Positions 41,401-63,895 of a stretch of DNA of 64,000 nt are shown one piece after another. Below the pieces are notes generated by a model, which was not told the DNA's origin, did not search any database, and was given only the letters and a program-made list of their open reading frames with translations. Source of the DNA: Mobula hypostoma (lineage: Eukaryota). Within the stretch, counting starts at the first letter, position 1; every line of letters starts with the position of its first letter. Made by a program: the position numbers and the translations under genes. Where the stretch lies: NCBI RefSeq assembly GCF_963921235.1, contig NC_086108.1:84570001-84634000 (forward strand), in the 5' to 3' direction.

Positions 41401-42565
41401 GGTACCGCAAGGCTCAGTGCTGGGACCCCAGTTGTTTACAATATATATTAATGACTTGGATTAAGGAATTAAATGCAGCATCTCCAAGTTTGCGGATGAC
41501 ACGAAGCTGGGTGGCAGTGTTAGCTGTGAGGAGGATGCTAAGAGGATGCAGAGTGACTTGGATAGGTTGGGTGAGTGGGCAAATTCATGGCAGATGCAAT
41601 TTAATGTGGATAAATGTGAAGTTATCCACTTTGGTGGCAAAAATAGGAAAACAGATTATTATCTGAATGGTGGCCGATTAGGAAAAGGGGAGGTGCAACG
41701 AGACCTGGGTGTCATTATACACCAGTCATTGAAAGTGGGCATGCAGGTACAGCAGGCGGTGAAAAAGGTGAATGGTATGCTGGCATTTATAGCGAGAGGA
41801 TTCGAGTACAGGAGCAGGGAGGTACTACTGCAGTTGTACAAGGCCTTGGTGAGACCACACCTGGAGTATTGTGTGCAGTTTTGGTCCCCTAATCTGAGGA
41901 AAGACATCCTTGCCATAGAGGGAGTACAAAGAAGGTTCACCAGATTGATTCCTGGGATGGCAGGACTTTCATATGAAGAACGACTGGATGAACTGGGCTT
42001 GTACTCGTTGGAATTTAGAAGATTGAGGGGGGATCTGATTGAAACGTACAAAATCCTAAAGGGATTGGACAGGCTAGATGCAGGAAGATTGTTCTCGATG
42101 TTGGGGAAGTCCAGAACGAGGGGTCACAGTTTGAGGATAAAAGGGAAGCCTTTTAGGACCGAGATTAGGAAAAACTTCTTCACACAGAGAGTGGCGAATC
42201 TGTGGAATTCTCTGCCACAGGAAACAGTTGAGACCAGTTCATTGGCTATATTTAAGAGGGAGTTAGATATGGCCCTTGTGGCTACGGGGATCAGGGGGTA
42301 TGGAGGGAAGGCTGGGGCGGGGTTCTGAGTTGGATGATCAGCCATGATCATAATAAATGGCGGTGCAGGCTCGAAGGGCCGAATGGCCTACTCCTGCACC
42401 TATTTTCTATGTTTCTATGTTACCATGTTCCTTCACCGTACCATTCTTTATCTTCCTCACCGGGACAAATTTATCCCTAACATCCTGCAAGAGATCTCTA
42501 AACATTGACCACATGTCCATAGTACATTTCCCTGCAAGAACATCATCCCAATTCACACCCGCAAG
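38428..42565 (-). mobile_element. CR1 'B' nested in CR1-A and itself split by CR1-C
   Basis: Tail (TTCTATG)n at 38428-38445. ORFs 38565-40356 cover the RT and C-terminus. It resumes at 42420-42565. Confidence 0.88.
40406..42419 (+). mobile_element. CR1 'C', young and 5'-truncated, with a nearly intact ORF2 RT half
   Basis: ORFs 40208..41464 and 41546..42328 are in the same frame, separated by one TAA. The 3' UTR and TTTTCTATGTTTCTATG tail are intact. Confidence 0.95.
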
Positions 42566-42946
42566 TTTTCTAACTTGTTTGTTCCTTTCTCTCTCTCGTG
42601 CTATTATAATGGAGATAGCATTATTATCACTATCTCCAAAATGCTCCCCCACTGAGAGATCTGACACCTGACCAGGTTCATTTCCCAATAGCAAATCAAG
42701 TACAGCCTCTTCTCTTGTAGGCTTATCTACATGTTGTGTCAAGAAACCTTCCTGAACACACCTAACAAACCCACTCCATCCAAACCCATTGCTCTAGAGA
42801 GATGCCAATCGATATTTGGGAAATTAGAATCTCCCATCATGACAACTCTTATTATTACACCTTTCCAGGATCTGTTTCCCTGTCTGCTCCTTGATATCCC
42901 TGTTACCATTGGGCGGCCTATAAAAAACACCCAGTAAAGTTATTCG

Positions 42947-43079
42947 TAAACACAAAATACTCTGCAGATACTGGGGTCAAAGCAACATGCACAACACGCT
43001 GGAGGAACTCAGCAGGTCGGGCAGCATCCGTGGAAATGAAGAGTCAACATTTTGGGCTGAGACCCTTCATCAGGACTGA
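42947..43079 (-). mobile_element. Penelope-derived terminal-repeat fragment with a decayed hammerhead
   Basis: Contains GGAGGAACTCAGCAGG. Minus strand reads agtc-CTGATGA-agggtctcagccc-AAAA-tGTT-gact, so both GAAA and GUC are mutated. Confidence 0.75.
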
Positions 43080-43569
43080 GCCATCCAAGTCTCTGTAATA
43101 GCCACCACATCATATCTCTAAGTACTGATCCACGCTCTAAGCTCATCCACTTTGTTCACAACACTCCTTGTGTTAAAATAGACACATCCCAAACCTTCGG
43201 TCTGAGCGCATCCCTTCTCTATTACCTGCCTATCCTCCCTCTTGCACTGTCTGCTAGCTTTCTCTATTTGTGAGCCAACCTCCTCTTCCCCAGCCTCTTC
43301 AGTTCAGTTCCCACTAAGTCACCCCTAAGCCTCCAGTGTGTTTCTACGGATTCTCAGACTTGCAAACACTGGGCCATCAACTTTGGACTTAAGCCAGGAG
43401 GACAATCATGGGCTCTGGTAGCTACATATATTTTCCCAGTACAAAACATGCCCTTGTTATCTACTAACCACCTATCTGCAGATGCACATAACCTCGAGGT
43501 TAGCTATCTATTATTTGGAATGTTGGTTAATGTAGCACATTCCTACAGAGTCCTTTCATGTGGTGTCAT

Positions 43570-44307
43570 GCCCACAATGTTGTGCTGACCCTCAAAACCT
43601 GCCTCCCATATAACCTCCCACCTTAAATTCCTCCATATAGCTGTCCAGTAGTCTCTTAAACTTCACTAGTGTATCTGCCTCCACCACTGAGTCAGGCAGT
43701 GCATTCCACGCACCAACCACTCTCTGAGTAAAAAACCTTCCTCTAATATCTCCTTTGAACTTTCTACCCCTTACCTTAAAGCCATGTCCTCTTGTATTGA
43801 GCAGTGGTGCCCTGGGGAAGAGGCGCTGGCTATCCACTCTATCTATTCCTCTTAATATCTCATACATCTCTATCATGTCTCTCATACATCTCTATCATGT
43901 CTCCTCCTTCACTCCAAAGAATAAAGCTCTAGCTCCCTTAATCTCTGATCATAATGCATACTTTCTAAACCAGGCAGCATCCTGGTAAATCTCCTCTGTA
44001 CCCTTTCCAATGCTTCCACATCCTTCCTATAGTGAGGCGACCAGAACTGGACACAGTACTCCAAGTGTGGCCTAACCAGAGTTTTATAGAGCTGCATCAT
44101 TACATCACGACTCTTAAACTCTGTCCCTCGACTTATGAAAGCTAACACCCCATAAGCTTTGTTAACTACCCTATCTACCTGTGAGGCAACTTTCATGTAC
44201 CCACAGATCCCTCTGCTCCTCCACACTACCAAGTATCCTGCCATTTACTTTGTACTCTGCCTTGGAGTTTGTCCTTCCGAAGTATACCACCTCACACTTC
44301 TCCGGGT
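43570..44307 (-). mobile_element. CR1-B family 3' fragment
   Basis: Closely similar to 38469-39205, with small deletions (ORFs 43592..43885 and 43909..44244). Confidence 0.9.
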
Positions 44308-44775: not shown

Positions 44776-45560
44776 AACACAAGAGACAGCAGACGCTGAA
44801 ATATGTTGCACACAAAATATAGACCTCAACAGGTCAGGTATTGTCTATGGATGGAAATGGATAGTTAACGTTTCAGGAAGAGTTCCTTCATCTGATCTGG
44901 AGACCCAAATCTAGATGAAGGATCTTGATTTGGAGTCCTTTGGCAGTCCTTTCTTCTCTACATATGCTGCCTGACCTGCTGAGTTCCTCCGGTGCTTTGT
45001 GTGTTGCTGGAGGGAAAGGAATCTGAACATCGACCTGAAACGTCAACAACTCTTTTTCTTCCACAGCAGCTGCTTGGCCTGCTGAGCCTTTCCAGCAATT
45101 TCACCAGTCTCACAACTTATTTAATTTCTGTAGTCTTGTAAGGAACTTTGATTCCCTTTTCTGTTACTGCACTTCCTTTGATATTTTGATAAATTTTTCC
45201 GGGTAACCGGAGATGTCACCACTCTTCTCATTTCTGATCATGCAAGAATCCAAATCGTCCCACGAAGTGAAGCAGCAATTCACATACATTTCTTCCAGTC
45301 TCTGCGCTGCATTACATTGGCAATGCAGTCTCCTTTAGTCAGGAAGCAACGTGCAGATTGAATGCCTGCTTTGTAGTGCCCCTGCATTGAGCTTGTAGCT
45401 GCAATGTAGTGCTGTCTGTTTATCCTTTTAATTACTTATCTCATTCAGATGCATCTGTATCCTCCTGCACTGAAAACAAGTACAAAGACCTCCAACTTCC
45501 ATCTTGTGACATAACAGCCTTCCCCGCCCAGTATTAAATTCTACAATGTAAGGCATTTCA
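44776..45560. mobile_element. Old Penelope-like remnants: inverted terminal-repeat pair and a decayed GIY-YIG segment
   Basis: 44776-44893 and 44912-45008 are opposite-orientation copies of the Penelope terminal repeat. 45240-45550 is a degenerate plus-strand equivalent of the GIY-YIG region at 62800-63140. Confidence 0.6.
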
Positions 45561-47169
45561 CCTTATTTGTCTGACTTGCAGAAGTCAGTCTGATGCAAGC
45601 AACTGTGTTACTGGCTCAGTTTTTCCTGCAAGCTTTAGAACAACATGAATGCTATATGCAAAGAAACTAAATATTAAAAATGTTATTCAAAGCATTGTTC
45701 AAAAGCAGTCCTTCTCCTGCTATTTAAGTCAATACCTCCCATTCAACCAATACCACCACCTCCTACACATCATTATGCTTTCTAGAAGAGGTTCAGAGGT
45801 TCTTTTGAGATATGGCTCAATGTATGCTGGTCGCTACACAAGCTCAAAACACATGACAAACATACCCTTCAGGCACTTTGAGACTTAAGGTGCATGGGAA
45901 ATGTAGTTTTCCAGCTGTACTTCAGATATTGATATGCTGAAGACCACTGAATGCCAAATCTAGATACAATTATCTTGAACTTCACTTACATTTATACTCA
46001 ATGCGTGGCTGAACTCAGTTTCACTGTGTTCTAAATAGACATAAAATGTCAATTGAAAATCAATAATTCAAAAAAAAATACAGAGTTTAAAGAACTACTT
46101 ATCATCCATTCGGACTCCTGTTTTTTTTAGATGCAATGTTACAATCCATATTTGCAAGAACTAAAAGGGAATGCTTTAAATCCCAAGGTGGTCATATCTA
46201 GAATATTCCTCAGTATTGTTCAGAGAAGTAACATGTTATTACCTGATTTCTTTGTAACTCCAGATCCATCAACATGGTTGACGTGACTAAGTGGCGTCGC
46301 TCAGTTGGAAGGACAATAAAAAATGAAGCACATGCTTACTTCTGAAACAGAAAGCTTAAGAACTTTCTTTCACCAGTATGCACAACAATAAAGATTCCCC
46401 AGTCGAATTACCGAAGTTCCACTTTATTTTTGTTGTAATTGTGTTCTTTCTTTTGAAAATTGCATACAATTGATGTTTATGTTTTCCTTGTGAATGCTAC
46501 ATGCATAAGTTTTCCATTTGCACAAGTACTTGGTGCAACACAGGCAGGATGACAATAAACTCTACTTTGACTCGTTGAAAGATGAAAGTAATAAATTTCC
46601 AAGATACCTTAACATATTTTATTTTTAGTACCAAGGACAAAATGAAAGAAAGTTAAAGCTCTAAGGATGAGTATGGATCGCAGACCGAGGACTTGTACTT
46701 TATTAGATCCATCAGGTAAAGAAAATATATGTTGCAGTAAAATTCTTATCACATGTTTTGCTATTGCTTGAAATCCCAAAGGCTTTACTAGCTCTGGCTC
46801 ATCAGAGAATGTTACATATGCTGGGTGTCTATTCCTCATGCTGCCTGTAACATTGCCAAGTTCAACAGAAAATTATATTTTTATGTAACTAGTAAAAATA
46901 TGGTGCATTACAGGAACACCAAAATCTACAAATCTGGTCTCAAAGTGCCAAGGATGTCTGATAAAGACGAGAAAATCTACAGATGCTTGAAATCCAAGCA
47001 ACACACACAAAATGCTGGAGGAACTCAGCAGGCCAGGCAGCATCTATGAAAAAGAACAAAATGTCATATTGCTATGGAAAAGAGGATGTCAGTTTTACTT
47101 AAACTGAATCTTGAAAGATGTTCGGGGGGGGAAAACGCAATAAGGCACTAGCTGGACTCGACTAGAAGA

Positions 47170-50100
47170 CCACAACACATAGGAGCAGAATTATGTCTTC
47201 TGGTCCATCGAGTCTGCTCCACCACTTAATCATGGGTAATTCTTTTTCCCCCTCCTCAGCCTTCTCCCCATAACCTTTGATGCCCTGTCCAATCAAGAAC
47301 CTATCAAGTTGTGTCTTAAATACACCCAATGACCCGGCCTTCACAGCTGCCTGATATTATAAATTCCACAAATTCACCACCCTCTGGCTAAAGAAATTTC
47401 TCCATACCTGTTTTAAATGGATGCCCCTCTACCCTAAAGCTGTGCTCTCTTGTCCTTAACTTCCCCACCATGGGGAAACATCCTTTTCACATCTAATCTG
47501 TCTAGGCCTTTCAACATTCAGAAGGTTTCAATGAGATCCCCTCTCATCCTTCTAAATTCCAGTAAGTACAGCCCCAGAGCTATCAAACCTTTCTCGTATG
47601 ATAACCCGTTCATTCCTGGAATCATCCTTGTGAACCACCTCTGAACCCTCTGCAATGCCAGCACATCTTTTCCTAGATGTGGAGCCCAAAACTGTTCACA
47701 ATACTCAAGGTGAGGCCTCGCCAGTGCCTTAAAGAGCCTCAGCATCACATCCCTGCTCTTGTATTCTAGACCTCTTGAAATGAATGCTAACATTGCACTT
47801 GCCTTCCTCACCACCAACTCTACCTACAAATAAACTATTAGGGTGTTCTGCACAAGGACTCCGAAGTCCCTTTGGATGTCAGATTTTTGGATTTTCTCCC
47901 TGTTTAGAAAATACTCTGCATATTTATTTCTACTACCAAAGTACATGACATGCATTTTCCAACATTGTACTTCATTTGCCACTCTCTTGCCCATTCTTCT
48001 AATTTGTCCAAGTCCTTCTGCAGCCTACTGGTTTCCTCAACACTACCTGCCCCTCCACCATGTTTGTATCATCTGCAAACTTGGCAACAAAGGCATCTAT
48101 TTCATCATCTAAATCATTGACATACACCATAAAAAGCAGTCCCAACACTGAACCCTGCGGAACACCACTAGTTACTGGCAGCCAACCAGAAAAGGATCCT
48201 TTTATTCCCACTCACTGCCTCCTACCAATCAGCCACTGCTCTAATTGTGCCACTAACTTCCTGTAATTTCATGGGCTCATAACGTGGTAAGCAGCCTCAT
48301 GTGTGGTACCTTGTCAAAGGCTTTCTGAAAGTCCAAATATACAACATCCACTGCATCCCCTTTATCTATTCTATGTGTAATCTCCTCAAATAATTCCAAC
48401 AGGTTCGTCAGGCAAGATTTTCTCTTAAGTAAACCAAACTGACTTTGTCCAATCCTGTCCTTTGTCACTAAGTACTCTATAACCTCATCCATAGCAGTTG
48501 ACTCTGACATCCTTCCGAACACTGAGGTCAGGTTAACTGGTCTATATAATTTCTCTTCTGCTGCCTTCCTCCATTCTTAAAGAGTGGAATGACATTTGCA
48601 ATTTTCCAGTCCTCTGACACCATGCCAGATTCCAGAGATTTTTGAAAGATCATTACTAATGCCTCCACAATCTCTACTGCTACCACTTTCAGAACACCAG
48701 GGTGCAGTTCACCTGGTCCAGGTGACTTATGTATCCTTAGGTCTTTCAGCTTTTTGAGCACCTCCTCCCTTGTAATAGGAACTGCGCTCACTTCTCTTCC
48801 CCTGCACCTTCAATATCTGGCACAAAACACTCATTTGGTTCATCTGCCATCTCCTTCATTTTCTAGTTTTCATATTTCATCTTTTCCCTAATGATTCTTT
48901 TAGCTGCTCTTTTTAGGGTTTTAAAAGCTTTCCAATCCTCTGTCTTCCCACTAAGTTTGCTTTGTTGTATGCCCTCTCTTCTGCTTTTACATTAGCTTTG
49001 ACTTCCCTCCTCAGCCACGGTTGTACTATTTTGCCATTTGAGTACGTATTTGTTTTTGGAATACATCTATCTTGTACCTTCCTCATTTTTCCTAGAAATT
49101 CATAACATTGCTGTTCTGCTGTCATCCCTTCCAACTTGCTTTGGTCAACTCCTCTCTCAATCCCACTGTAATTTCCTTTACTCCACTGAAATACTGTTGC
49201 ATCAGGCTTTACTTTCCCCCTGTCAGATTTCAAGTTGAACTCAATCATATTGTGATCACAATAAAGGGTTCCTTTACCTTCAGCTCCCTAACCACCTCTG
49301 GTTTATTACATAACACCCAATCCAGAAAAGCTGATCTCCTAGTAGGCTGAATGATGAATTACTTTTAAAAAAACCATCTTGTAGGCATTCGACAAATTCA
49401 CTCTTGGAATCCATTTCCAACTTGACTTTCCAAACTGACCTGCGTGGTGAAATCTCACGTAACAATCAGAACATTGCTATTTTGACATGCCTTTTCTATT
49501 TCCTGTAGCAATCTGTGGTCCACGTCCCAGCTACTGTTAGGTGACCTGAATATAACTACCATCAGGGTCCTTTTACCCTTGCAGTTTCTTAACTCAAACC
49601 CTCAAGGATTCTAATTCTATGACATATCTTTCTACAGATTTATGCCATTCTTTACCAGCAGAGCCATGCTACTCCCTCAGCCGACCTTCCTTTCCCTCCG
49701 ATACAACGTGTAACTTTGGACATTCAGCTCCCAACTCCAGCCATGAACAGTGATGGGCACCACATCATACTCAACAATCTGTATACGTGCAACAAGATCA
49801 TCCACCTATTTCTTATACTCTTTGATTCTGCATCCATAAATGCACTGATATTCACCCTACTGGCTGCAGTTATGTCCTATCATCTGCCTGCCCTTTCTGA
49901 CAGTCTGACTGCATGCTATCTTTGCTTTTTTACCATTTGTCCTATCCTGAGCCCCTTCACTCCAGTTCTCACCCCACTGCGAAATTAGTTTAAACCCTCC
50001 CCAACAGCCCTAATGAATCTGCCTGCGAGAATATTGGTTCCCCTTGAGTCAAAAGTGACACATTGCACCTGAACAGGGCATAGCTCCTCCAGAAGAGATC

Positions 50101-50519: not shown

Positions 50520-51574
50520 GTGTGTCAAAAGTTGATATAGGTGTTCCAATTGTTGCACACTGAAAAAGTTTTTTATTGAAAAGATAGAGATCAGTTATGG
50601 TGCAAATGTTTAGACCTATCATCCCCAAATATTAATGGATTTGTTTTAAATTATTAACTCATATTGATTTAGAAAACAACCTACACCATTTGTCAAGCAG
50701 TCATTTCTTTGAACTTTTCCAACATGCCTACTCTGTGAAAAATTTCCCCAGTCCTTTCACTAAGGTGACAAAATAGTTTACAGACATTATGCGCCCGAAG
50801 CACTACCTTGAACTGTATCAAGGAATGATGGGCACAAATAGATGAGTTATTAACCAAATGAAAAAGATTACTCCATTGATTATCTGAAAATGACTCCTAA
50901 AATTCCAATTCCCAAGCATGTTTAAGTTTATCATTAGATATCATTCGTGAATTCAATAACCGTTTATAGATTATAGCTATCAACCCTTTTTGAAATGGTT
51001 TAAACTGAAAGAGAACATCTGTCAAATTAAGTGGATAAATAGAAGGGTAATTTGTCAACAAACCACGTAAAAAAATCCTAATTTGTAAATATTAAAAAAA
51101 ATGTACATTAGATAAATCATATTTATCCACTAACTGAGAAAAAGACAGTAAACAATTCCCTAAAAACAAATCTGCAAAAGTATTCCCTTGGTTTTCCAAA
51201 CTAAAAAGGCCTTATTCAAAATTGATGGTTAAAAAAATAAAGATGGATATTACTAGAAAGAATAAAATTATTTAACTCAAAAAATCTACCAAACTGAAAC
51301 CAAATTAAGTGTGTCGAAAGTAGATATAGGTGATCCAATATAATTGTTGCACACTGGAATAGTTTTTCATTGAAAAGATAGAGATCAGTTATGGTGCTGT
51401 AAATGTTTAGACCCATCATCGCCAAATATTAATGGATGTTTTAAATTATTAACTCATATTGATTTAGAAAATAACCTACACCATTTGTCAAGCAGACATT
51501 TCCTTGAACTTTTCCAACATGTCTGTTCTGTGAAAAATTTCCCCAGTCCTTTGACTAAGGTGACAAAATAGTTT
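50520..51574. repeat. Direct repeat pair of about 260 bp (50520-50779 and 51309-51574)
   Basis: The copies are colinear and share long identical blocks such as ATTGAAAAGATAGAGATCAGTTATGGTGC and TTTTAAATTATTAACTCATATTGATTTAGAAAA. Both end in CTAAGGTGACAAAATAGTTT. Confidence 0.9.
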
Positions 51575-51585
51575 GTCTACTTCTT

Positions 51586-52066
51586 AAACAACAGGAATTC
51601 TGCAGATGCTGGAAATTCAAGCAACATACATCAAAGTTGCTGGTGAACGCAGCAGGCCAAGCAGCATCTATAGGAAGAGGCGCAGTCGACGTTTCAGGCC
51701 GAGACCCTTCGTCAGGACTAACTGAAGGAAGAGTGAGTAAGGGATTTGAAAGCTGGAGGGGGAGGGGGAGATGCAAAATGATAGGAGAAGACAGGAGGGG
51801 GAGGGATAGAGCCGAGAGCTGGACAGGTGATAGGCAAAAGGGGATACGAGAGGATCATGGGACAGGAGGCCTAGGGAGAAAGACGGGGGGGGGGGTGACC
51901 CAGAGGATGGGCAAGAGGTATATTCAGAGGGACAGAGGGAGAAAAAGGAGAGTGAGAGAAAGAATGTGTGCATAAAAAGGAGTAACAGCTGGGGTACGAG
52001 GGGGAGGTGGGGCCTAGCGGAAGTTAGAGAAGTCAATGTTCATGCCATCAGGTTGGAGGCTACCCA
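51586..52066 (-). mobile_element. Short Penelope-like insertion of the same family as 62396-63446
   Basis: Highly similar to 62396-62840 and encodes the C-terminal LQPDGMNIDFSNFR. An 11-bp TSD, GTCTACTTCTT, sits at 51575-51585 and 52067-52077. Confidence 0.9.
51683..51720 (-). ncRNA. Minimal type I hammerhead ribozyme in a Penelope-like terminal repeat
   Basis: Minus strand reads tagtc-CTGACGA-agggtctcggcct-GAAA-cGTC-gactg. Stem I is tagtc/gactg, stem II is agg/cct, stem III is the palindromic ACGT, and the cleavage triplet is GUC. Confidence 0.8.
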
Positions 52067-52369
52067 GTCTACTTCTTGTAACCTTTATAATAATGAGGGT
52101 GCTGACTGTTTTCTCAATTGGTAAGCTGTTACTGAATTCTTCTAACAGCAATTGCCTTGGATTCCTTGACAACTCAACTCTGGCTTTCAATGAAAGGAAC
52201 TGGCTTCTTGAAAAGCAAGGCTGTTGAGCCCAGAAAATTACACAATTTAAAGTCTCTTGCTTTCCTCCTCCCACAATGAAATTACATACTCATAACCCAA
52301 GTATGCCATGATTAATAAATCATAAGATAACTTTGATATCTTCCAAGATTTATAGTAATTGAATCAAAG

Positions 52370-55300
52370 ACTCAAAGACAAAAAGACATTTATTGACTGT
52401 AAATCATTTCAATGTGTTCTTATTTTCCTAAACAATCACAGCAAGCCATTTAAACTTCATGTTGCATTAACTAATACAGTTGTTTTTATAGATCAATACA
52501 ATCAATTGCTGTACAGACTCCTGAGATGGTTGTAGTGTAGACTGTAGGTCTCTCAGATGAGACATAATGGTCAAAGAACTGTTCAATTATTTCAGAAAGA
52601 GGCAAGATGCCATGAAATTTTAGTTGGATGCTTTTTAAAGCACCTCCCCGAAGGTTGCAATATTTTACAATCAAATAATATTTGTTAATCAGTGGTACAT
52701 TAAAGTATTTGAAAACTGAACAAATGCACCCACCTTTCTCTGCAATGTGCAACTTCTTCAGTATCGCTGGGAGAAAAGGATAACAACCGTTTAAAGAGCT
52801 CACGGTTCAAATATGAAATGCTGAATTGAGAAATATACACAATATTTTAATTTCTTTCTGTCTAAACAAATTGAAGACAAGATTCAGTATTATATTGAGA
52901 GTTTGGAGATTGGAGAAAATATTGTGGGAGGGAAAAATTCCAAGTAACACAAAGAAAATTGAAATAGACTACCTGTTAGATTTTTGCAGTTAATTATGGG
53001 GTAGATAAAAATAAAGGTCGATCCATTTTCAATTGCTCAATTTTTCCCCTTTAAGGTAACTAATATACAGAAAAGATTCCCAGAGAAGTTGTTGTTTTGG
53101 AATCAACAAACATATTTAAAACACAAACTGAATTGATCAATACATGTTACAAAAGGAAAATTTAAAATTAGAGTTATTAACTGCATTTACCCACAGCATC
53201 CAATTAAATGTCTTTAAAGTGACAATTAGCAGGTTATTTCAAGATAGAAGTCCATAATAGAGTAAAACATGCAAGTGCTTTGGAGGTAGAGCTCCTGATA
53301 GATCAAATGGGCTGCAAATATTCTTAACTCTTATTCAGGCCTTGAACAAGGTTTTGTCAACTTTAACTTCTTTGAAGAGAAAATGCAAACAAGACTGCAT
53401 TAAAAATCACTTCACCTTATTTCATAAAAGAACTAATTGCACCGGATAGATAATGCTTTATTAAATGTACATTTTCCAGTGTGAAGCAATATTGGATGAT
53501 AACCTATTATAAATGGGATGAAGTGAAAAAAAAAATTATCAGGATTCCAATAAATTAGAAACTACAAAGCCGAACTCTCATAGACGGAAATGATAAAATA
53601 TGACAGAAAACATTAAAGTGTTTCCACAGCTGTAAACTCATTGCAAAGCTAAAATGAGATTCTCAAATTGGAACAAATAAAAGTGCAATAACCAAGGTGC
53701 CTTGAAGAAAAACTGTACCATGTGAATGGCTGTCACTTCAAAACATTTCCAAAAAAGATTTCATGAAATAATTCACCTCCCTTAACAGGCAACTCTTCAT
53801 TTTTAGGAAGTGATTTTTCTAAAAACTAAAATTTATAAACTAAGAGCAAACTGGGCCGTTTACACAATTCTGAAATAAAAAAAGTTTAAATTGCTCCTTT
53901 CTACAATTGGTCTCCAGAGAGGACAAGTGAAAATCAGACTTGCTAATTAATCGAAACAGTTGAAATTGCCATTTATTTCTTCTCAATTATATTTTCAAAT
54001 ACAAACACTTGCAATTGCCAAAACCAAAGATTTTCAAAGGGGTTTCTATATTTTTTTTTGAAAAAGGGAGCAGCTCAGCTACTTACTACTGCATGCTTTC
54101 CCCATTAGGAAAGTAAGATTTTCAGGATACATACAATTAAATAAACACAATCATTTAAATTATGTTTTCCTTTTACAGTTAAATTCAACATTTAAATTTA
54201 GCATGCTTTTACTGTTAAGTTATCACAATATCAGATGGTATTGATGCAACTTCAAATATGTTGAACACAAAAGTACATCATGGTCTGTTGCATCAATTGA
54301 TTAAGTTTTTAAAGACCAGTTTGGATTGTACAACCAAACTTGCAATGTTGTGTGCATTGTCCAACATCAGTCCCAACAGTCTACACCAAACCAACAGAAC
54401 AAATAAAGAAAATTTTACAATGTAATTAAGTATGAATATTCCAATAAAAATTAATAATTGAATAAACAAATATAATTTGTAGTACAGATTAAAACTGCAC
54501 AGAAGTCTAATACACAAGCGTTCACATATGATGAACAAATCCATTAGGAAGTCATGAAATGGCAGGTGGGGGTAGGGCAGTGGTGGTTTTTGAGAGAAAT
54601 GAAAATGAATCCAGCTTTATTTTTAAGAATACACAATGGCCTTCTAGAGTTCATTTGCTACTTTATCAACACTTCCCCATTCAAGGTCTCAACTTTCTAT
54701 TTACTGCCAAGGTGAACACTGAAATAAACTGCTACACTTAGAAGGGAAATGTTTTCTTTTTAAAAAAAATTGTCTAATCACCAATCAACCTAAAGTTTTA
54801 GGCTTCCCTATAAATACAGATAAGAGTTTTAACTCCAAGCACCGATTATGACCCTAGTTTCGGGCTAAATATAGTCAAAATGTATTCACATCTTCTAGAA
54901 CTCATCATAGCTTCCACAGTGGGATTGGTTACATGGCTGTGGTGAATCAGCTATGCATCAGCCTTTACTGTACACATGTATCAGAGATTAGTTGGGCACT
55001 AAATTCCTTCTGATAGTTAATGTTAAGAAAATTAAGCAAATAGTGATTTGCAGTATTAAAAAGGTAATTGCTTTACTCTTTCTGAACATGGATGTTTAGT
55101 GTTGAAATTTAACCCCAAAACATTCTTTGTAACAGTACTCCTAGCTACTGAAGCCTCAATTAAAGACACTTCTTGATCCAGATTAATCTGCACTCTACAA
55201 TGCAGCAGTCCGAAGCATGGCCAAAGAATGCGCAGAAACAACTTTGATGAAATCCCAAGATATTTGATACTTAAGTTCCAAGGGAGTGCTGTTAGAGAGG

Positions 55301-55440
55301 CACCTTCAGTAATGCAGAGTAGCCTTGATGCCAGAGAAATTAGAACTCAGATGCATTCACATATCTACAATACAACCATGTGCAAAAACCAGATTTGTCC
55401 CAATTGGTTTCCATAGATGAAGTTCTGAACAATTTCTGAA
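52370..55440 (-). other. KDM4A: Probable KDM4A 3' UTR of about 3 kb
   Basis: AT-rich, transposon-free stretch after the stop codon. Minus-strand AATAAA at 52394-52389 is followed by a GT/T-rich tract (TGTCTTTTTGTCTTTG). Other AATAAA candidates lie near 53460 and 54618. The end point is inferred. Confidence 0.6.
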
Positions 55441-55581
55441 TCACTCCATAATTGTACGGTACAGAGATGGCTCAACATAATCCCCACGATACCTGGAGTT
55501 CAAAACTCGCTGTCGCTTTGACACATGAGCAACCTCCTCTTCTGTAAAAATTCCAGTGAATCGCATGTCTGATGCTACAGA
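55441..55581 (-). CDS. KDM4A: KDM4A last coding exon: SVASDMRFTGIFTEEEVAHVSKRQRVLNSRYRGDYVEPSLYRTIME*
   Basis: Acceptor TTGTCTTGCAG|, then 46 codons and TGA at 55443-55441. The C-terminus resembles KDM4A (KRQRVINSRYREDYIEPALYRAIME, from memory) rather than KDM4B or KDM4C. Confidence 0.93.
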   Translation of the reverse strand, partial: SVASDMRFTGIFTEEEVAHVSKRQRVLNSRYRGDYVEPSLYRTIME

Positions 55582-57315
55582 CTGCAAGACAAGCAACAAA
55601 TATTTTTAGTACACTAAAGGGTTTTACAACCACATTCCACAGACTTACGAATATTTGACAAAAGCATCAAAAATCTCACTTAGTGGGAACCAAGATGATG
55701 AAAAGCTTCACATCTGGAAAATTTCCATTTAATTAGAATGATGAGCAGACATGATAACACAATGCAGTGACAAAGAAATTTTGCCCATGTATTCAACCCA
55801 ACTATTGAGTTTTGTAAATTTGCAGCTTTCCTGGGGAGGATGCTGCATAGCTGCAATTCTTCTGTTGTGATATGGGCAGCATCCAACATTACTCCACATC
55901 CATCACCCCTTAGCTTTGCAGCCTTTCAAAACATGGCCAGATGACACTTTCAAACTAGAGGTTCTGCTACTTATGAGGAAAAGCATTGAACACAATGCAT
56001 CTGAGATATGTTTAATTCCCGTATCAGTTTTTTTACTCTCAAAACGGAAGAGGGTTTAAGTTTTTAAGACATTTTAACCCATATCTTCCAAAAGATAAAA
56101 AACAATATCAACAAAAAAAAACCATTAGACAGAAGGACCCAAACCTGAAGGTCAACAGCATCTTCCCCACTGCATTAAATTATTGAACTAATCAAAAAAA
56201 AAGCTAATATCACCTCAGACTATATTTCTTTTTATACTCTCCTTTAATTTACATCATTATGTTTATTGGCTGTGCAAGTTACATACAAATTATGTTCATT
56301 TAGGTTTGTCAAGTCAGTACTATATTGTCCTGCTGCTAAAAGCTAACTTTCATGGCATTTGTATCTTGGGAGTGCATAAACTTGAACTCTGACATGAAAT
56401 ACATTAATGCATATCACAAATAGATCAATTTGATGACATTTTTAAGGAGTTAGCTCATGTGAGTGAATGGATAATTTCAAGGATAATCCCATCTGGGGTG
56501 ACATATCAACAAAAAGGACAAAACTTTGTCTTGTAGAGGGGACTAAAGCTCTGTACAGCAATCTTCTAAAGTTACAGAATGTATTTTGCTTCTCAAACCC
56601 TTCACCCATACATACAAAATGTACGTGGGTGAACAAGGAAATGAAATAGAATGTGAAAGAATCTGACAAAAAAGTACTTGCACTCATTAACTACTTTTTA
56701 AAAATAAAGTTGCCTTCATGCAAGCGATTTAATAAACAGGCTTTATGTGGTTGATGCTGATAGTTCATTTCTTTTGAAAAAGGTAACTCTAGAAATCAAG
56801 ACCATAGTTTCGGGATAAAGTCTCATTCATTAAAGGCAGACAAAGGACTGATTTATTCCCTTAAAATACAATGTATATTTGGAACTATGCATCACTGAAA
56901 GCTGTAGAAACAGAGGCATCTAATGTATTTTCAAGGTAGAACTTGGGATCAGTGGAACTGAAACAAAGTTGAGATCAGCTAACATTTTACTGAGAAGCAG
57001 AACAAGTTCAAGGGCTACATATCCTTCCCTTAATTCTATTTTCATTTTATCAATGATTTTCAGAAGCAATACTTACATAATCAAACCCAGAAAACAAAAA
57101 GTTATAACAATCAAGTATACAGATTGTCATTTCAAGCAATATGCAGATTAAATACTGTTTTTCTCTATCCTTGTCAAAATAAACAGTACAAACCATTTCA
57201 GTGGCAGGCATACGATCACCTTAAACTGTGAAACCATTGCTCTTCCAGGAAGTCATCACCCAACAAGTGTGAAAAAAACACGATTGCATTGGAGAGGAAG
57301 TTGCTACATACTTAC

Positions 57316-57408
57316 CAGTCTAGACTTGACTTTTTTGGGAAGTTCCTCATTTAGAGTGTACACATCTTCCCTTTTAACCATTAATTGAGAAGCATCTTCA
57401 AATTCCAC
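57316..57408 (-). CDS. KDM4A: KDM4A penultimate coding exon: [31 protein letters not shown]
   Basis: 93 bp, with acceptor CCTTTCAG| and donor CTG|GTAAGT. It continues the previous exon in frame. Translated by hand because it is not in the ORF track. Confidence 0.95.
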
Positions 57409-57811
57409 CTGAAAGGATAATAAAGCAATAATGAAAACTCAATTTGAAACTTAGCATTTAGAAAGACAAGATTGATAGAAATAATTTATGGTGGTTTTGA
57501 CAGATTTATACATTCTGCACCTATATTGTTAATTTTCCACACCAAGGACCAATAAATCAATTACTGAAAATATTAGAGAAATCCTGTTCAATATGGTCAA
57601 GATTCTGAAATAATTAATCCAAAGTTATCAAAGCACAAAACTTAAAATCTACTGGATATACAAATGATGCAGTGTGGGAAGAAACTGTACAAAATATAAA
57701 TGCACTGATGTTAAAAAGGAATCACGGGAGAAATGTTTACAGCGATTAATACCTACATAATTATTTGCCTACATATCAAACTGTTTTGCCCTTCAACCAG
57801 ATCGCTATACA

Positions 57812-59181
57812 CAGTGCTGAATAAGTACTGCCCCACCCACCGGAAGTTTTCAAGTTTTATTGTTTTACAACACTGAATCACAGTGGATTTGCTTTTTTGA
57901 CACAGATCAACAGAAAAAATACTCTTTCGTGTCAAAGTTAAAACAGATCTCTGCAAAGTGATCTAAATTAATTACAAATTTAAAACACAAAATAATTGGT
58001 TGCATAAGTATTCAAACTCTTCAAGTCAGTATTTAGTAGATGCACCCTTGGCAGCAATTACAGCCTTGAGTCTGTGCAGATAAGTTTCCATCAACTTTGC
58101 ACCTCTGGACACCACAAATTTTCCCCATGCTTCTTTACAAAACTGCTAAAGCTCTGTCAGATAGCATGGGGAATGTGGAAACAGCCCTTTTCAAATCCAT
58201 CCACAAATTTTCAATTGGATTGAAGTCTGCCATTCAGGTGCAGCTTTGGCTTTATGCTTGGGGTCATCGACTTGCTGGAAAACAAATCTTCTCCCAAGTC
58301 ACAGTTCTCTTGCATACTGAATCAGGTTTTCCCTCCAGGGTTCCCAGTATTTTTCTGTATTCATTTTACCCTCTACCATCACAAGCCTTCTAGGGACAGC
58401 TGCAGTGAAGCATCCCCATAGCATGATGCAGTCACCACCATGCTTCATGGTAGGGATGGTAAGGTTTTGATGATGTGTGGTGTTTGACATGCCAAATATA
58501 GCATTTAGTCTGATGGCCAAAAAGCTCAATTTTGGTTTCATCAGACCAGACTTTTCTTCCAGCTGACTTCAGAGTCTCCTACATGCCTTCTGGCAAACTC
58601 TAGACGAGATTTTTTTCCCCAACAGTGGCTTTCTCTTTGCCACTTTCCAATAAAGCTGCAACTGGTGAAGCATGCAGGAAACAACTGTTACATGCACAGT
58701 CTCTCCCATCTCAGCCACTGAAGCTTGTAACCCCTCAAGGGTTGGTGGCCTCCATCACTAGTCCCCTTCTTGCACAATCACTCAGTTTTTGTGGATGGCT
58801 CGCACTAGGTAGATTTACAGTACCATATTCTTCCCAGTTCTTGATGACTGACCTATTTTTACTACAATCAATTGAAACACCTTGACTGCACATACGTCTC
58901 CAAAATCAGATCTCCTTTTAACTAATTATGTGACTTCTAAAACCAATTGACTGTACTAGTGCTGATTTAATGTCATATTCAAGGGGGTGAATATATATGC
59001 AATCAATTATTTTGTGTTTTACAATTGTAATTAATTTAGATCTGTTTTTACTTTGACACGAAAGAGTCTTTTTCTGTCGATCAGAGCCAAAAAAGCCAAA
59101 TTAAAGCCACGGTGGTTCAATGTTGTAAAACAATAGAACATGAAAACTTCAAAAAAGAGTGAATACTATTTATAGGCACTG
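57812..59181 (-). mobile_element. Tc1-like DNA transposon with long (about 210 bp) inverted repeats, decayed, in a KDM4A intron
   Basis: Ends are CAGTGC...GCACTG-TA. Internal IR blocks CTCTTTCGTGTCAAAGT and ACTTTGACACGAAAGAG. Transposase remnant PTMKHGGDCIMLWGCF at 58299..58541. Confidence 0.9.
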
Positions 59182-59249
59182 TATTTAGTTATGTTCCTAA
59201 TAAATACCACATTAATTGCTCAAAAATTTTAAAAAATACAGTCCTTTAC

Positions 59250-61451
59250 CATAGCGTTGGAGAAGGATACGAGCAGACAAGTTAGGAAAGTGTTTAGTTG
59301 GAGTAAGGGGAAATATGAAGCTATCAGGCAGGAACTTGGAAGTACAAATTGTGAGCAGATGTTCTCAGGGAAATGGACGGCAGAAATGTGGCAAATGTTC
59401 AGGGGATATTTGCAAGACGTTCTGCATAGGTACATTCCAGTGAGACAGGGAAAGGATGATAGGGTACAGGAACCATGGTGTACAAAGGCTGTTGAAAATC
59501 TAGTCAAGGAAAGCTTACGAAAGGTTCAAAAACTTAGATAATGATAGAGATGGAGAAAATTATATGGCTAGCAGGAAGGAGCTTAAGAATGAAATTAGGA
59601 GAGCCAGAAGGGGTCATGAGAAGGCCTTGGTGAGTAGGATTAAGGAAAATCCCAAGGCATTCTACAAGTATGTGAAGAGCAAGAGGATAACATGTGAGAG
59701 AATAGGATCAATCAAGTGTGACAGTGGAAGTGTGTATGGAACAACCAGAGGAGGTAGTGGAGGTACTTATACTTTGCTTCAGTATTTACTATGGAAAAGG
59801 ACCATGGCGATTGTAGGGATGACTTACAGCAGACTGAAGGTTGAGCATATACATATTAAGAAAGAGGAGCTTTTGGAAAGCATCAAGTTGGATAAGTCAC
59901 CAGGACCTGACGAGAATTACTCCAGGCTACTGTGGGAGGCGAGGAAGGAGATTGCTGAGTCTCTGGTAATGATCCTTGCATCATCAATGGGGATGGGAGA
60001 GGTTCCAGAGGATTTGAAGCTTGCAGATGTTGTTCCCTTATTCAAGAAAGGGAGTAGAGATAGCCCAGGAAATTATACACCAGTGAGTCTCATTTCAGTG
60101 GTAGGTAAGTTGATGGAGAAGATCCTGACAGGCAGAATTTATGAACATCTGGAGAGGCATGATATGATTAGGAATAGTCAGCATGGCTTTGTCAAAGGCA
60201 GTTGGTGCCTTTCAAGCCTGATTGAATTTTTTGAGGATAACACTAAACATGTTGATGAAGGTAGAGTGGTAGATGTAGTGTATATGAATTTCAGCAAGGC
60301 ATTTGATAAGGTACCCTATGCAAGGCTTATTGAGCAAGTAAGGAGGCATGGGATCCCAGAGGACCTTGCTTTGTGGATCCAGAATTGGCATGCCCACAGA
60401 AGGAAAAGAGCAGTCATAGACGGGTCCTATTCTGCGTGGAGGTCAATGATCAGTGTTGTGCCTCAGTGATCTGCTCTGAGACCCCTTCTCTTCGTGATTT
60501 TTATAAATGACCTGCATAAGGAAGTAGAGGGATGGGTTAGTAAATTTGCTGATGACACAAAGGTTGGGGGTGTTGTGGATAGTGTGGAGGGCTGTGAGAG
60601 GTTACAGCGGGACATTGATAGGATGCAAAACTGGGTTGAGAAGTGGCAGATGGAGTTCAACCTAGATAAGTGTGAGGTCGTTCATTTTGGTAGGTCAAAT
60701 ATGATGGCAGAATATAGTATTAATGACTCTTGGCAGCGTGGAGGATCAGAGAGATCTTTGGGTCCAAATTCATAGGACACTGAAAGGTGCTATGCAGCTT
60801 GACTCCGTGGTTAAGAAGGCATACGGTGTATTGGCCTTCATCAATCGTGCGATTGAGTTCAAGAGCTGAGAGGTAATGTTGCTGCTATATAGGACCCTGG
60901 TCAGACCCCAGTTGGAGTACTGTGCTTAGTTCTGGTCACTTCACTACAGGAAGGATGTGGAAACTATATAAAGGGTGCAAAGGAGATTTACAAGGATGTT
61001 GCCTGGAATGGGGGGAATGCCCAATGAGAATAGGTTGAGTGAACTCAGCCTTTTCTCCTTGGAGCAACGGAGGATAAGAGGTGACCTGATTCAGGTATGT
61101 AAGATGACGAGAGGCATTGATTGTGTGGATAGTCAAGAGGTTTCTTCCCAGGACTGAAATGGCTAGCACAAGAGGGCACAGTTTTAAGGTGCTTGGAAGT
61201 AGGTACAGAGGAGATGTCAGGGGTAAGTTTTTTTTTTAAAATGCAGAGAGTGGTGAGTGCGTGGAACGGGCTCTCGGTGACAGTGGTGGAGGTGGATACA
61301 ATAGGGTCTTTTAAGAGACTCTTGGATAGCCATGGAGCTTAGAAAAGTAGAGGGCCATGGGTAACCCTAGGAAATTTCTAAAGTAAGTACATGTCCAGCA
61401 CAGCATTTTGGGACAAAGGGTCTGTATTGTGCTGTTGGTTTTCTGTTTCTA
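59250..61451 (+). mobile_element. CR1-A family LINE, 5'-truncated, in a KDM4A intron (antisense to the gene)
   Basis: ORFs 59257-61157 contain [15 protein letters not shown] and [10 protein letters not shown]. The tail is TTTTCTGTTTCTA. Confidence 0.93.
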
Positions 61452-61495
61452 CAACACCTGAACTATTGGCAAAAGTACTTTAATTTGTTTCCTAC

Positions 61496-61615
61496 CTGGT
61501 ACAGCTGTATAACATGTGATGCTACAAATTGGGCTCCATATACGAGTCCGTCAGTCCATCTGACTTGTACCACCTCTCCTTCTGCAGGAGGTCCCAATCG
61601 CAGACAGTCACGACT
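61496..61615 (-). CDS. KDM4A: KDM4A coding exon, third from last (Tudor region): [40 protein letters not shown]
   Basis: 120 bp, phase 0/0, with acceptor TTTTCAG| and donor CAG|GTAGG. The peptide matches the KDM4A Tudor segment [16 protein letters not shown] as I recall it. It lies within ORF 61463..61645. Confidence 0.95.
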
Positions 61616-62395
61616 CTGAAAATTAGCATTACTTAGAAAAGTCAAAAATTTTTACTCTTTTTACACAATCAATGTTAATCTTTAGAAGAATGCAAACACA
61701 GATCAGATTCTACTTTGTGTTATATTCAATGAACATTTAACATAATTCCTTTTTTAACATAAATTAATTCTTTTAAAAAAAAATCAATGGACTTGAAAAC
61801 AGACAAATTATTTTTGGCTATTGAACTTCATCTTTATGCATAGTGTATCAGTGTGTGTGTAGTTTTGTTCGTTTTGCTTATATTAAAATAGTTTTATGGC
61901 AAACAGAACTTGTGGAGGATAAACCATTTGTGCTTTTTGATCAGGCAGGTTTTCCTGATAGTGTGAGACTGTTTAACAAATGTTGTTATCTTGGTTTTGG
62001 AATCAAGGGCACACAACTTCAGTCACAAGCTATTTTGCATTGTAACAAAAATCACAACCTACCACAATGTCCTCTGGATACAAGTTGTCACTGAAGGAAC
62101 CATCATCGAAATTCACTTCATAGAAGGTTTCTTTACTCAATCCAACCACCTCACATTGGTAAAAGCGCCCATTTTTGTGTTTTGAGATGACCTTCTGCCC
62201 AACTTCAATCTCATTTAAAGCTGATTTAGAACGCTATGGAAAAATTAAACAAAATTTTTATTTTATTTAGAGATGCAGTGTGGAGTAGGCCCTTCTGGCC
62301 CTTCGAACTGCACCACCACTGCAACCCCTGATTGAACCCCAACCTGGTGATGGGACAATTTACAATGACCAATTAACCTACGTAGTATGTCTTTG

Positions 62396-63446
62396 CAACA
62401 CACATCAAAGTTGCTGGTGAACGCAGCAGGCCAAGCAGCATCTGTAGGAAGAGGTGCAGTCGACGTTTCAGGCCGAGACCCTTCGTCAGGACTAACTGAA
62501 GGAAGAGTGAGTAAGGGATTTGAAAGTTGGAGGGGGAGGAGGAGATCCAAAATGATAGGAGAAGACAGGAGGGGGAAGGATAGAGCCAAGAGCTGGACAG
62601 GTGATAGGCAAAAGGGGATACGAGAGGATCATGGGACAGGAGGTCCGGGAAGAAAGGCAAGGGGGGGGGACCCAGAGGATGGGCAAGAGGTATATTCCGA
62701 GGGACAGAGGGAGAAAAAGGAGAGTGAGAGAAAGAATGTGTGCATAAAAATAAGTAACAGATGGGGTACCAGGGGGAGGTGGGGCCTTAGCGGAAGTTAG
62801 AGAAGTCAATGTTCATGCCATCAGGTTGGAGGTGACCCAGACGGAATATAAGGTGTTGTTCCTCCAACCTGAGTGTGGCTTCATCTTGACAGTAGAGGAG
62901 GCCGTGGATAGACATGTCAGAATGGGAATGGGATGTGGAATTAAAATGTGTTGCCACTGGGAGATCCTGCTTTCTCTGGCGGACAGAGCGTAGATGTTCA
63001 GCAAAGCGGTCTCCCAGTCTGCGTCGGGTCTCGCCAATATATAAAAGGCCACATCGGGAGCACTGGACGCAGTATATCACCCCAGTCGACTCACAGGTGA
63101 AGTGTTGCCTCACCTGGAAGGACTGTTTGGGGCCCTGAATGGTGGTAAGGGAGGAAGTGTAAGGGCATGTGTAGCACTTGTTCCGCTTACACGGATAAGT
63201 GCCAGGAGGGAGATCAGTGGGGAGGGATGGGGGGGGACGAATGGACAAGGGAGTTATCTAGGGAGCGATCCCGGCGGAATGCAGAGAGAGGGGGGGAGGG
63301 AAAGATGTACTTAGTGGTGGGATCCCGTTGGAGGTGGCGGAAGTTACGGAGAATAATATGTTGGACCCGGAGGCTGGTGGGGTGGTAGGTGAGGACCAGG
63401 GGAACCCTATTCCTAGTGGGGTGGCAGGAGGATGGAGTGAGAGCAG
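62396..63446 (-). mobile_element. Penelope-like retroelement, 5'-truncated, with GIY-YIG endonuclease region
   Basis: ORF 62787..63248 has PCKRNKCYTC and VIYCVQCSRCGLLYIGETRRRLGDRFAEH. A hammerhead-containing terminal region follows. A 9-bp TSD, ATGTCTTTG, sits at 62387-62395 and 63447-63455. Confidence 0.9.
62457..62494 (-). ncRNA. Minimal type I hammerhead ribozyme, identical to 51683-51720, in a KDM4A intron
   Basis: Same 38 nt. It lies about 290 nt downstream of the stop codon of the GIY-YIG ORF 62787..63248. Confidence 0.8.
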
Positions 63447-63895
63447 ATGTCTTTGACTGTGGGAGGAAACCAAAGCACCTGGGGAAAAACCCATGTATCC
63501 CATAGGAAGGATGCACATGGAGACTCCTTACAGATGATGCTGGATTTGAACTCTGGCACCCTGAGCTGTAATAGTACAGTGGTAACCGCTTTACTACTGT
63601 GGCACCCATCTTTTAAGAGTTCCATTGATCTCAATTGTCCGGCAAAGGAAGATAACAAAAAATCCATTTTGCATGTTAATTAATGACCAGATGGTGAGCC
63701 AGTACCAGGACATTTAATAGCAGCTGCTATAGGTTAGATCTGCCTTTATACCTTAAAACATAATTTCATCACAAAGCTGCAGCCATGGAACAGGGCTTTT
63801 GGATCAAACAGGCAAGATACAAACTAACAAGATGAGCAAAATAAACAATAGCCAGAAAATTAGTGAATTAAATGCCAAAATTACATACATAAATT

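What the first reader, a model, noticed from the sequence alone, without database searches (positions are those of the whole stretch)
51683..62494. Two identical minimal hammerhead ribozymes bracket the last three KDM4A exons on the gene's sense strand
Seen: identical 38-nt hammerhead motifs at 62494-62457 (intronic) and 51720-51683 (about 0.65 kb past the putative poly(A) site). Both are on the minus strand like KDM4A, and their predicted cleavage sites (after 62462 and after 51688) are 10,774 nt apart. Known: minimal hammerheads of Penelope-like elements have a palindromic stem III (here ACGU) and cleave far better as dimers. Inference: a nascent KDM4A read-through transcript would carry both, so two independent insertions could supply each other's dimer partner. 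That could cut out, or even circularise, the Tudor-coding exons and 3' UTR. It may equally be a coincidence of an abundant young repeat.
Basis: partly seen in the sequence, partly recalled or inferred. Interest (0 to 1): 0.7.

Follow-up and report, generated by a model that had tools for sequence, protein, structure and literature searches.

The report
Two Penelope retroelement hammerheads near KDM4A
The two identical self-cutting-RNA motifs are real, but they are the standard tail motif of two separate, recent insertions of a very common jumping gene in a ray genome, so their position around the end of KDM4A is most likely chance and not a device for cutting out or circularising its exons.

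Summary
The two 38-nt motifs are identical, on KDM4A's sense strand and 10,774 nt apart, but they bracket four exons, not three. Each lies in a 5'-truncated Penelope-like element (PLE) copy: 423 of 448 positions shared, own target-site duplication, and a GIY-YIG endonuclease frame in the longer copy, 94% identical to a Mobula protein. Identity over 38 nt is unremarkable (P about 0.10). The family is hugely abundant: five more relics in the window and summed DNA depth about 2x10^5 times unique sequence (not a copy number). The downstream copy is absent from the same site in a related organism. Spliced contigs join all four exons normally. The motif fits the published minimal PLE hammerhead, except that a G-U pair replaces G10.1-C11.1, and local folding disfavours the active form. 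Published minimal PLE hammerheads cut weakly as dimers, and one tested PLE hammerhead cut only with its own protein. Paired cleavage or a KDM4A circle was not tested and is unlikely (about 4%). The scan has noted this family repeatedly elsewhere in this genome.

The parts
62395..63446 (-). PLE copy A: 5'-truncated insertion (about 1,050 nt) holding the RT-EN linker, the GIY-YIG endonuclease end of the ORF and the terminal-repeat (pLTR) region, without the 35-nt tail; in the KDM4A intron
62787..63257 (-). Open frame of copy A: C-x4-C-x2-C linker finger, then GIY-YIG domain (VIY...CxxC...YIG, later H residues); the upstream part of the ORF is in another frame (one frameshift near 63240)
   Evidence: Pfam GIY-YIG E 2.2e-4, 21.9 bits against cut-off 22.6; 94% identity to Mobula hypostoma LOC134353856; frames and motif
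62457..62494 (-). Minimal type-I hammerhead motif of copy A; predicted cut after 62462, 228 nt before the 3' splice site
63447..63455 (-). Target-site duplication of copy A, upstream copy (CAAAGACAT; 8-9 nt, ends ambiguous)
   Evidence: chance about 0.012
62387..62395 (-). Target-site duplication of copy A, downstream copy
62265..63610 (-). Older short dispersed repeat (SINE-like by recalled resemblance, not tested) split in two by copy A; its two halves match collinearly, 19 nt apart, at 33544-33829 (+)
51586..52066 (-). PLE copy B: 481-nt 5'-truncated insertion (last codons of the ORF, pLTR region, 35-nt tail at 51620-51586), downstream of the KDM4A AATAAA; absent at this site in organism B
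   Evidence: X9 record 21
51683..51720 (-). Minimal type-I hammerhead motif of copy B; predicted cut after 51688
52067..52077 (-). Target-site duplication of copy B, upstream copy (AAGAAGTAGAC, 11 nt)
   Evidence: chance about 0.002; a single copy at the empty site in X9
51575..51585 (-). Target-site duplication of copy B, downstream copy
62063..62233 (-). KDM4A exon, fourth from last (Tudor 1)
61496..61615 (-). KDM4A exon, third from last
57316..57408 (-). KDM4A exon, second from last
52370..55581 (-). KDM4A last exon: coding to the stop at 55441, then about 3.05 kb of 3' UTR (lower end approximate, inferred from the AATAAA)
   Evidence: spliced contigs cover it to 52485 (X5) and 52397 (X6)
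52389..52394 (-). AATAAA, candidate distal poly(A) signal between the gene body and copy B
42948..43079 (-). Decayed relic of the same pLTR with a broken hammerhead core; it has C at position 11.1

Best explanation
Both motifs are passengers of two unrelated retrotransposition events of one very abundant, recently active Penelope-like family (C-terminal GIY-YIG, Neptune/Nematis-type linker) in a ray. Each insertion was copied from the element's 3' end by target-primed reverse transcription and stopped early, so each kept the terminal-repeat region that carries the hammerhead (shown: shared body, own duplications, different 5' ends; inferred: the mechanism, from the known PLE cycle). In the full element the motif probably serves processing of tandem element RNA, needing a partner copy and perhaps the element's protein (from the literature). 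At KDM4A copy A leaves with its intron and copy B is cut off at the poly(A) site, so the two rarely share one RNA long enough to refold into a double hammerhead (splicing shown; the rest inferred). They have no gene-level function.
For: 423 of 448 shared positions around both motifs, and identity over 38 nt at P about 0.10. Separate 9-nt and 11-nt duplications. GIY-YIG frame with close relatives annotated in Mobula and Hypanus, 18 hits among 226 candidates. Empty site for copy B in organism B: one 5,604-nt contig runs 57345 to 52067 and straight on from 51574, with 74 letters and 21 gaps different over 5,274 nt. Abundance: 7 profile hits in 64 kb, two of them these copies; summed DNA depth over copy B 5.4 million against 21-32 in the UTR bins (X1) and 2.5 million against 8-12 (X9) (the tool says this is no copy number). 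At assumed densities of one copy per 100 to 20 kb, a same-strand neighbour within 11 kb has a probability of 5-24% for any copy. Spliced contigs in 2 of 2 RNA-guessed runs of one study join the four exons and leave the laid stretch at the 62235 splice site. With 30-200 nt of native flank, stems I and II have probability at most 0.004 in 8 of 8 folds; the active dimer lies 10.5 kcal/mol (bare) to 18-21 kcal/mol (flanked) above two monomers. Literature: monomer no cleavage, dimer low (PMC4209133); Anolis Poseidon hammerhead cut only with protein and no read ends were found at its site (PMC11167929); 8 of 9 Xenopus tandem dimers did not cut in vitro (10.64898/2026.07.22.740005).
Against: Both cores are intact and both copies are on the sense strand. 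Distance alone is a weak objection: my rough loop estimate is 14.0 kcal/mol at 10.7 kb against 12.7 at the natural 3 kb spacing. The folding energies had no positive control and ignore tertiary contacts, Mg2+ and protein help; the competing hairpin belongs to the element itself, so it may be resolved in vivo. Polymerase normally runs past a poly(A) site (own knowledge), so copy B is probably transcribed. Contigs show mature RNA only and drop rare forms; 1,381 joints were not displayed, and the laid stretch ended at 62450, short of the predicted circle junction. The site of copy A was not bridged in organism B, so its age is open.
Confidence: 0.9

Rival explanations
1. Paired cis cleavage: on a nascent transcript that still holds the intron end and has run past the poly(A) site, copies A and B swap stem-I strands, pair through ACGU, both cut, and the 10,774-nt piece with four exons is released and perhaps closed by RtcB.
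For: Both cores intact, same strand, identical, and the double-hammerhead fold is topologically allowed. This is how tandem pLTRs about 3 kb apart are proposed to act (PMC4209133); RtcB circularises ribozyme-cut retrozyme RNA in vitro (PMC7229834, passages) and ribozyme-flanked RNA in cells (10.1101/2023.07.11.548538, passages).
Against: It needs the intron unspliced and the poly(A) site uncut at the same time. Active fold disfavoured, G-U instead of G10.1-C11.1, weak or protein-dependent activity of relatives. Copy B is absent in a close relative. Two thirds of the piece would be intron and spacer, and it has no designed joining stem.
Confidence: 0.04
2. Each copy cuts slowly on its own account, helped by the element's protein or by pairing in trans with one of the very many transcribed family copies, with little effect on KDM4A: an intronic cut is tolerated by splicing and a cut past the poly(A) site only offers another entry for termination.
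For: The family is heavily represented in the RNA-guessed runs (summed depth 238,000 and 80,000 over copy B against 170 and 68 for the KDM4A contig, not a measure of expression). Protein-assisted cleavage is shown for the Anolis element. Hammerhead cleavage in an intron did not block splicing (PMC2995048, passages citing earlier work); engineered hammerheads near a poly(A) site cut co-transcriptionally (PMC2288634, passages).
Against: No end mapping was possible from contigs. In Anolis no read ends were found at the cut site. Local fold and the G-U pair argue against activity.
Confidence: 0.05
3. The motifs were kept identical by selection or by gene conversion between the two copies.
For: The longest identical run (71 nt) covers the motif.
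Against: That run length has P=0.29 and the fixed window P=0.10 under random placement; copy B is not conserved in organism B.
Confidence: 0.01

Closest known systems
Minimal hammerheads (min-HHR) in the pLTRs of metazoan Penelope-like elements (Cervera and De la Pena 2014, PMC4209133; parts 1-2 of 4 read)
   Same: [quoted passage not shown]
   Different: Stem II is short (4 bp, two of them G-U) where the paper describes 7-8 bp for Schistosoma; G10.1-C11.1 is replaced by G-U; the host is a ray; the two motifs come from separate insertions, not from the two pLTRs of one element. Supplementary alignments were not seen.
Neptune/Nematis-type EN+ PLEs (Craig et al. 2021, 10.1101/2021.04.23.441226; passages read)
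   Same: [quoted passage not shown]
   Different: Only 3' fragments are present; no RT here, so the clade was not placed by tree; no microsatellite target.
Poseidon element of Anolis (Frangieh et al. 2024, PMC11167929; parts 1-2 of 4 read)
   Same: Two alternative 3' ends about 35 nt apart (copy A without, copy B with the tail), as explained there by two internal RT start sites; AT-rich target for copy B.
   Different: Different clade (Poseidon lacks the linker finger); activity there was measured, here it is not.
Non-LTR retrozymes and engineered ribozyme-flanked circles (PMC7229834 passages; 10.64898/2026.07.22.740005 parts 1-3 of 5; Tornado system, 10.1101/2023.07.11.548538 passages)
   Same: What the proposed mechanism would work like: two self-cleavages leave ends that RtcB can join.
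   Different: Retrozymes are head-to-tail repeats of 170-400 nt; Tornado uses ribozymes chosen for efficient cleavage and a designed 18-bp joining stem. Here two solo copies are 10.8 kb apart with three introns and a poly(A) signal between them.

Membership tests
Minimal PLE hammerhead (min-HHR) | Core CUGANGA ... GAAA ... NUH with stems I and II | tested here: met
Minimal PLE hammerhead (min-HHR) | Palindromic 15.2-16.2, no stable stem III; extra nucleotide between 9 and 10.1 | tested here: met
   ACGU; extra A; features from PMC4209133
Minimal PLE hammerhead (min-HHR) | Conserved G10.1-C11.1 pair (a highly conserved trait in the paper, not part of its descriptor) | tested here: not met
   G-U in both copies; of the relics one has C and two have U at this place, so the family consensus is unresolved
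Minimal PLE hammerhead (min-HHR) | Located in the terminal repeat of a PLE | tested here: met
   about 290 nt downstream of the GIY-YIG stop in copy A
Minimal PLE hammerhead (min-HHR) | Self-cleavage as a dimer | not testable with these tools
   only folding estimates without a positive control
Rfam hammerhead families | Covariance-model match | tested here: not met
   0 matches at gathering score in the window; no hammerhead among 3 matches up to E=10 in 62300-62700
EN+ Penelope-like element | C-terminal GIY-YIG endonuclease with CCHH | tested here: met
   Pfam E 2.2e-4, just under the cut-off; CxxC between VIY and YIG and downstream histidines read by eye
EN+ Penelope-like element | RT upstream in the same ORF | tested here: inconclusive
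   absent from the truncated copies; 1 of 4 related proteins scanned has a weak RVT_1 match (E 0.008, below cut-off), all 4 have GIY-YIG; RT-like YIDD/YVDN seen by eye
EN+ Penelope-like element | 5' truncation, target-site duplication, optional 30-40 bp tail | tested here: met
   loose ends pile at 51586 in both RNA-guessed runs (38 and 29 records), and the empty site keeps one duplication copy
Neptune (or Nematis) clade | CX2-5CxxC finger in the RT-EN linker | tested here: met
   C-x4-C-x2-C at residues 23-31 of the frame; definition
Neptune (or Nematis) clade | Placement by RT phylogeny | not tested
   no RT in the window and no reference set at hand
Non-LTR retrozyme | Head-to-tail tandem units each with a hammerhead | tested here: not met
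   two solo copies with separate duplications
Host-co-opted intronic hammerhead (conserved type) | Conserved at the orthologous site across species | tested here: not met
   copy B absent in organism B; copy A's site not bridged, so open
KDM4A | C-terminal double Tudor closer to KDM4A than to KDM4B/C | tested here: met
   one exon tested, 101 bits against 75 and 71; no tree, upstream exons outside the window

The most novel reading that the evidence does not exclude
In a genome this full of near-identical PLE hammerheads, solo copies that happen to lie in the same transcription unit could complete each other in cis, perhaps with the element's protein, and cut out or circularise host RNA: a natural, accidental version of ribozyme-flanked circle making. 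The KDM4A pair would be one case, releasing the double-Tudor exons and 3' UTR, and present or absent by lineage, so two close species give a natural control.
Probability: 0.04. Interest if true: 0.7.

Novelty: new member of a known kind. Interest (0 to 1): 0.14.

Why it matters
As it stands it matters little: two more copies of a described retroelement motif. If paired cleavage were real it would show that dispersed retroelement ribozymes can act in pairs on host pre-mRNA, a new source of truncated or circular host transcripts in cartilaginous fishes, and it would give the first in vivo readout of dimer-type PLE hammerheads. The locus is a convenient test case, because copy B is present in one organism and absent in a close relative.

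Tried and rejected
No whole genome is held for this window, so copies could not be counted and pair frequencies rest on assumed densities. Rfam gave no hammerhead match. Scans for the motif in metagenome, prokaryote and viral collections found 0 matches each. Two attempts to read the family's letter at position 11.1 from mis-annotated proteins in a non-coding frame failed: 2 unrelated repetitive proteins and 0 of 6 candidates. No RNA holder is on record as RNA; X5 and X6 are guesses, supported by GT-AG joints. Their KDM4A contigs stop at 52485 and 52397, just above the AATAAA, and no listed RNA piece bridges on to copy B; both are from one study and stop at different places, so this is not counted as evidence on termination. 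No place with many molecule ends was listed, which contigs cannot show. The joint 51620 to 62395 (skipping exactly 10,774) appears in both DNA runs and in neither RNA-guessed run; it also appears in organism B, which lacks copy B, so I read it as other family copies, not as a deletion or excision product. X1 record 4 (51442-51574, 7 differences) looked like an empty allele but fits the 95% duplicate at 50642-50779. Paper searches for a natural case of two retroelement ribozymes circularising host exons returned 0 papers holding all six terms, and the search for elasmobranch PLE hammerheads listed 6 papers, none on this by title or abstract start; the library lacks most subscription papers. The scan's notes held no look-alike by sequence and none for the paired-excision idea.
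Full report
Observation. The two 38-nt stretches at 62494-62457 and 51720-51683 are identical on the minus strand, and the predicted cuts are 10,774 nt apart. They read as a minimal type-I hammerhead: 5-bp stem I, core CUGACGA, one extra A, a 4-bp stem II, GAAA, palindromic ACGU and GUC. Rfam does not recognise them; I expect this for a motif without stem III, but that is inference. The gene is KDM4A-like by its first Tudor exon (101 bits to KDM4A, 75 to KDM4B, 71 to KDM4C). Four exons, not three, lie between the motifs; they give one open frame, and their three introns are bridged at GT-AG in both RNA-guessed runs laid.

What the motifs belong to. The identity extends far beyond the motif: 62840-62395 and 52067-51621 agree at 423 of 448 columns. 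With 25 differences, 79 of 411 38-nt windows are identical, and random placement leaves this window clean in 10% of trials, so the identity needs no special cause. Copy A continues upstream to 63446 and holds a 156-codon frame with a Pfam GIY-YIG match (E 2.2e-4, just under the cut-off), a C-x4-C-x2-C linker finger and one frameshift. Its best relatives are annotated proteins of Mobula hypostoma (94%) and Hypanus sabinus (76-93%), 18 hits among 226 candidates, so the host is a ray. All 4 relatives scanned carry GIY-YIG and one has a weak RT match. By the definitions in Craig et al. (passages) this is an EN+ Penelope-like element with a Neptune/Nematis-type linker; I did not place it by RT tree.

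Two independent insertions. Copy A is flanked by a 9-nt duplication and copy B by an 11-nt one (chance about 0.012 and 0.002). Copy A splits an older short repeat whose halves lie together at 33544-33829. Copy B has a 35-nt 3' extension that A lacks, and its end at 51586 is a common end of family records; this fits the optional 30-40 bp tail of PLEs. In a DNA run of a related organism one contig crosses from 52067 to 51574 without the element, keeping one duplication copy, with about 1.4% substitutions in the flank. Copy B is therefore young or polymorphic, and the bracket is not shared with a close relative. Copy A's site was not bridged in that run.

Chance. A profile of copy B's end finds 7 hits in the window: the two copies and five relics. 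Summed contig depth over copy B is about 2x10^5 times that of the neighbouring unique UTR in both DNA runs; the tool warns that this is no copy number, so I use it only to say very abundant. At assumed densities of one copy per 100, 32 or 20 kb, a given copy has a same-strand neighbour within 11 kb with probability 5, 16 or 24%. Many such pairs must exist, and some will enclose exons. Unchecked notes of this scan describe the same family as hugely amplified elsewhere in this genome.

Could the pair work? The double-hammerhead fold is nested and allowed, and distance is not the main obstacle: a rough loop estimate gives 14.0 kcal/mol at 10.7 kb against 12.7 at the 3 kb spacing of real pLTRs. 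Against it: the bare motif mispairs its core with CGUC (probability 0.99), and with 30-200 nt of native flank stems I and II nearly vanish (at most 0.004 in 8 of 8 folds); in the 71-nt and 136-nt folds the pyrimidine tract upstream takes the core. The active dimer is 10.5 to 21 kcal/mol above two monomers, and modelling a C at position 11.1 narrows this only to 9.1-16.4. These numbers have no positive control and omit tertiary contacts. Both copies have G-U where Cervera and De la Pena report a highly conserved G10.1-C11.1; the relics are mixed and the family consensus could not be read. In the literature a Schistosoma min-HHR did not cut as monomer and cut weakly as dimer (parts 1-2 read); the Anolis element's hammerhead cut only with its protein, was dispensable for insertion in vitro and left no read ends in RNA data (parts 1-2 read); 1 of 9 Xenopus tandem dimers cut (parts 1-3 read); axolotl canonical-type dimers cut well and give circles (passages). 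Timing is also against it: copy A lies 228 nt from a 3' splice site that the spliced contigs use, and an AATAAA lies 706 nt before the second cut. Both steps separate the motifs. Even a cut would probably be harmless: hammerhead cleavage in an intron did not block splicing (passages of PMC2995048 citing earlier work).

Limits. Only contigs were available, from four runs of three studies, X1 possibly the source of the assembly; they cannot show ends, strand, levels or rare forms, and the laid stretch stopped short of the predicted circle junction. A joint skipping exactly 10,774 nt was seen in DNA runs, also in the organism lacking copy B, which shows how easily family copies mimic the predicted products. 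Supplementary figures of the Cervera paper (fish consensus motifs, cleavage gels) and the closed bioRxiv supplements (one chondrichthyan genome was surveyed) were not seen and may already list this family.

Verdict. A correct catch of a known motif in two recent, separate PLE fragments; the arrangement around the last four KDM4A exons is best explained by chance (0.9). The paired-cleavage idea was not found in the papers searched and would be interesting, but I put it at about 4%. Interest 0.14.

Noticed in passing
window 42948-43079 (-), 46971-47048 (-), 45029-45101 (+), 44788-44898 (-), 44909-45025 (+): Five decayed relics of the same terminal-repeat family; three cluster at 44.8-45.1 kb, two of them back to back on opposite strands 10 nt apart, like the inverted arrangements described for PLEs.
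   Followed up: partly
window 63447-63450 and 52067: The 5' junction of each copy shares letters with the element (about 4 nt for copy A, 1 nt for copy B), so the truncation points are ambiguous, as in microhomology-joined 5' ends; read by eye.
   Followed up: partly
window 51621-52067 and 62395-62840: As 94% identical direct repeats 10.8 kb apart the two copies are a possible substrate for a DNA deletion that would remove the last four KDM4A exons; no evidence for such an allele was found.
   Followed up: partly
window 50642-50779 and 51437-51574: A 138-nt local duplication (95% identical) begins right at the 3' flank of copy B; the flank is also present in organism B.
   Followed up: no
window 52370-55441: The KDM4A 3' UTR is about 3 kb; four earlier AATAAA/ATTAAA words (54621, 53977, 53462, 52851) are covered by the spliced contigs, so they are read through at least in part.
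   Followed up: partly
window 55331-55540: A second contig in each DNA run (X1 record 6, X9 record 23) matches 210 nt of the last exon at about 92%, which suggests a processed pseudogene or partial duplicate of KDM4A elsewhere.
   Followed up: no
window 14800-20400 (+) and 28666-31907 (-): Two long, frameshifted L1/Tx1-like retrotransposon copies (ORF1 and ORF2 pieces), named by recalled resemblance only.
   Followed up: no
window 35000-44300, 47500-50000, 59270-61400: Dense nested CR1-like LINE fragments on both strands, including 85-89% inverted pairs between 36.5-38.4 kb and 59.3-61.1 kb; family name by recalled resemblance.
   Followed up: no
window 57850-59170: A high-copy element with inverted ends (joint 58019/58996 on opposite strands), probably a decayed Tc1-like DNA transposon in a KDM4A intron; name recalled, not tested.
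   Followed up: no
proteins P0003, P0004, P0008, P0014: Several annotated ray proteins (named mucin-2, divergent protein kinase domain 1C, receptor-transporting protein 3-like, chitinase domain-containing 1) contain this element's ORF, so it is often drawn into gene models.
   Followed up: no
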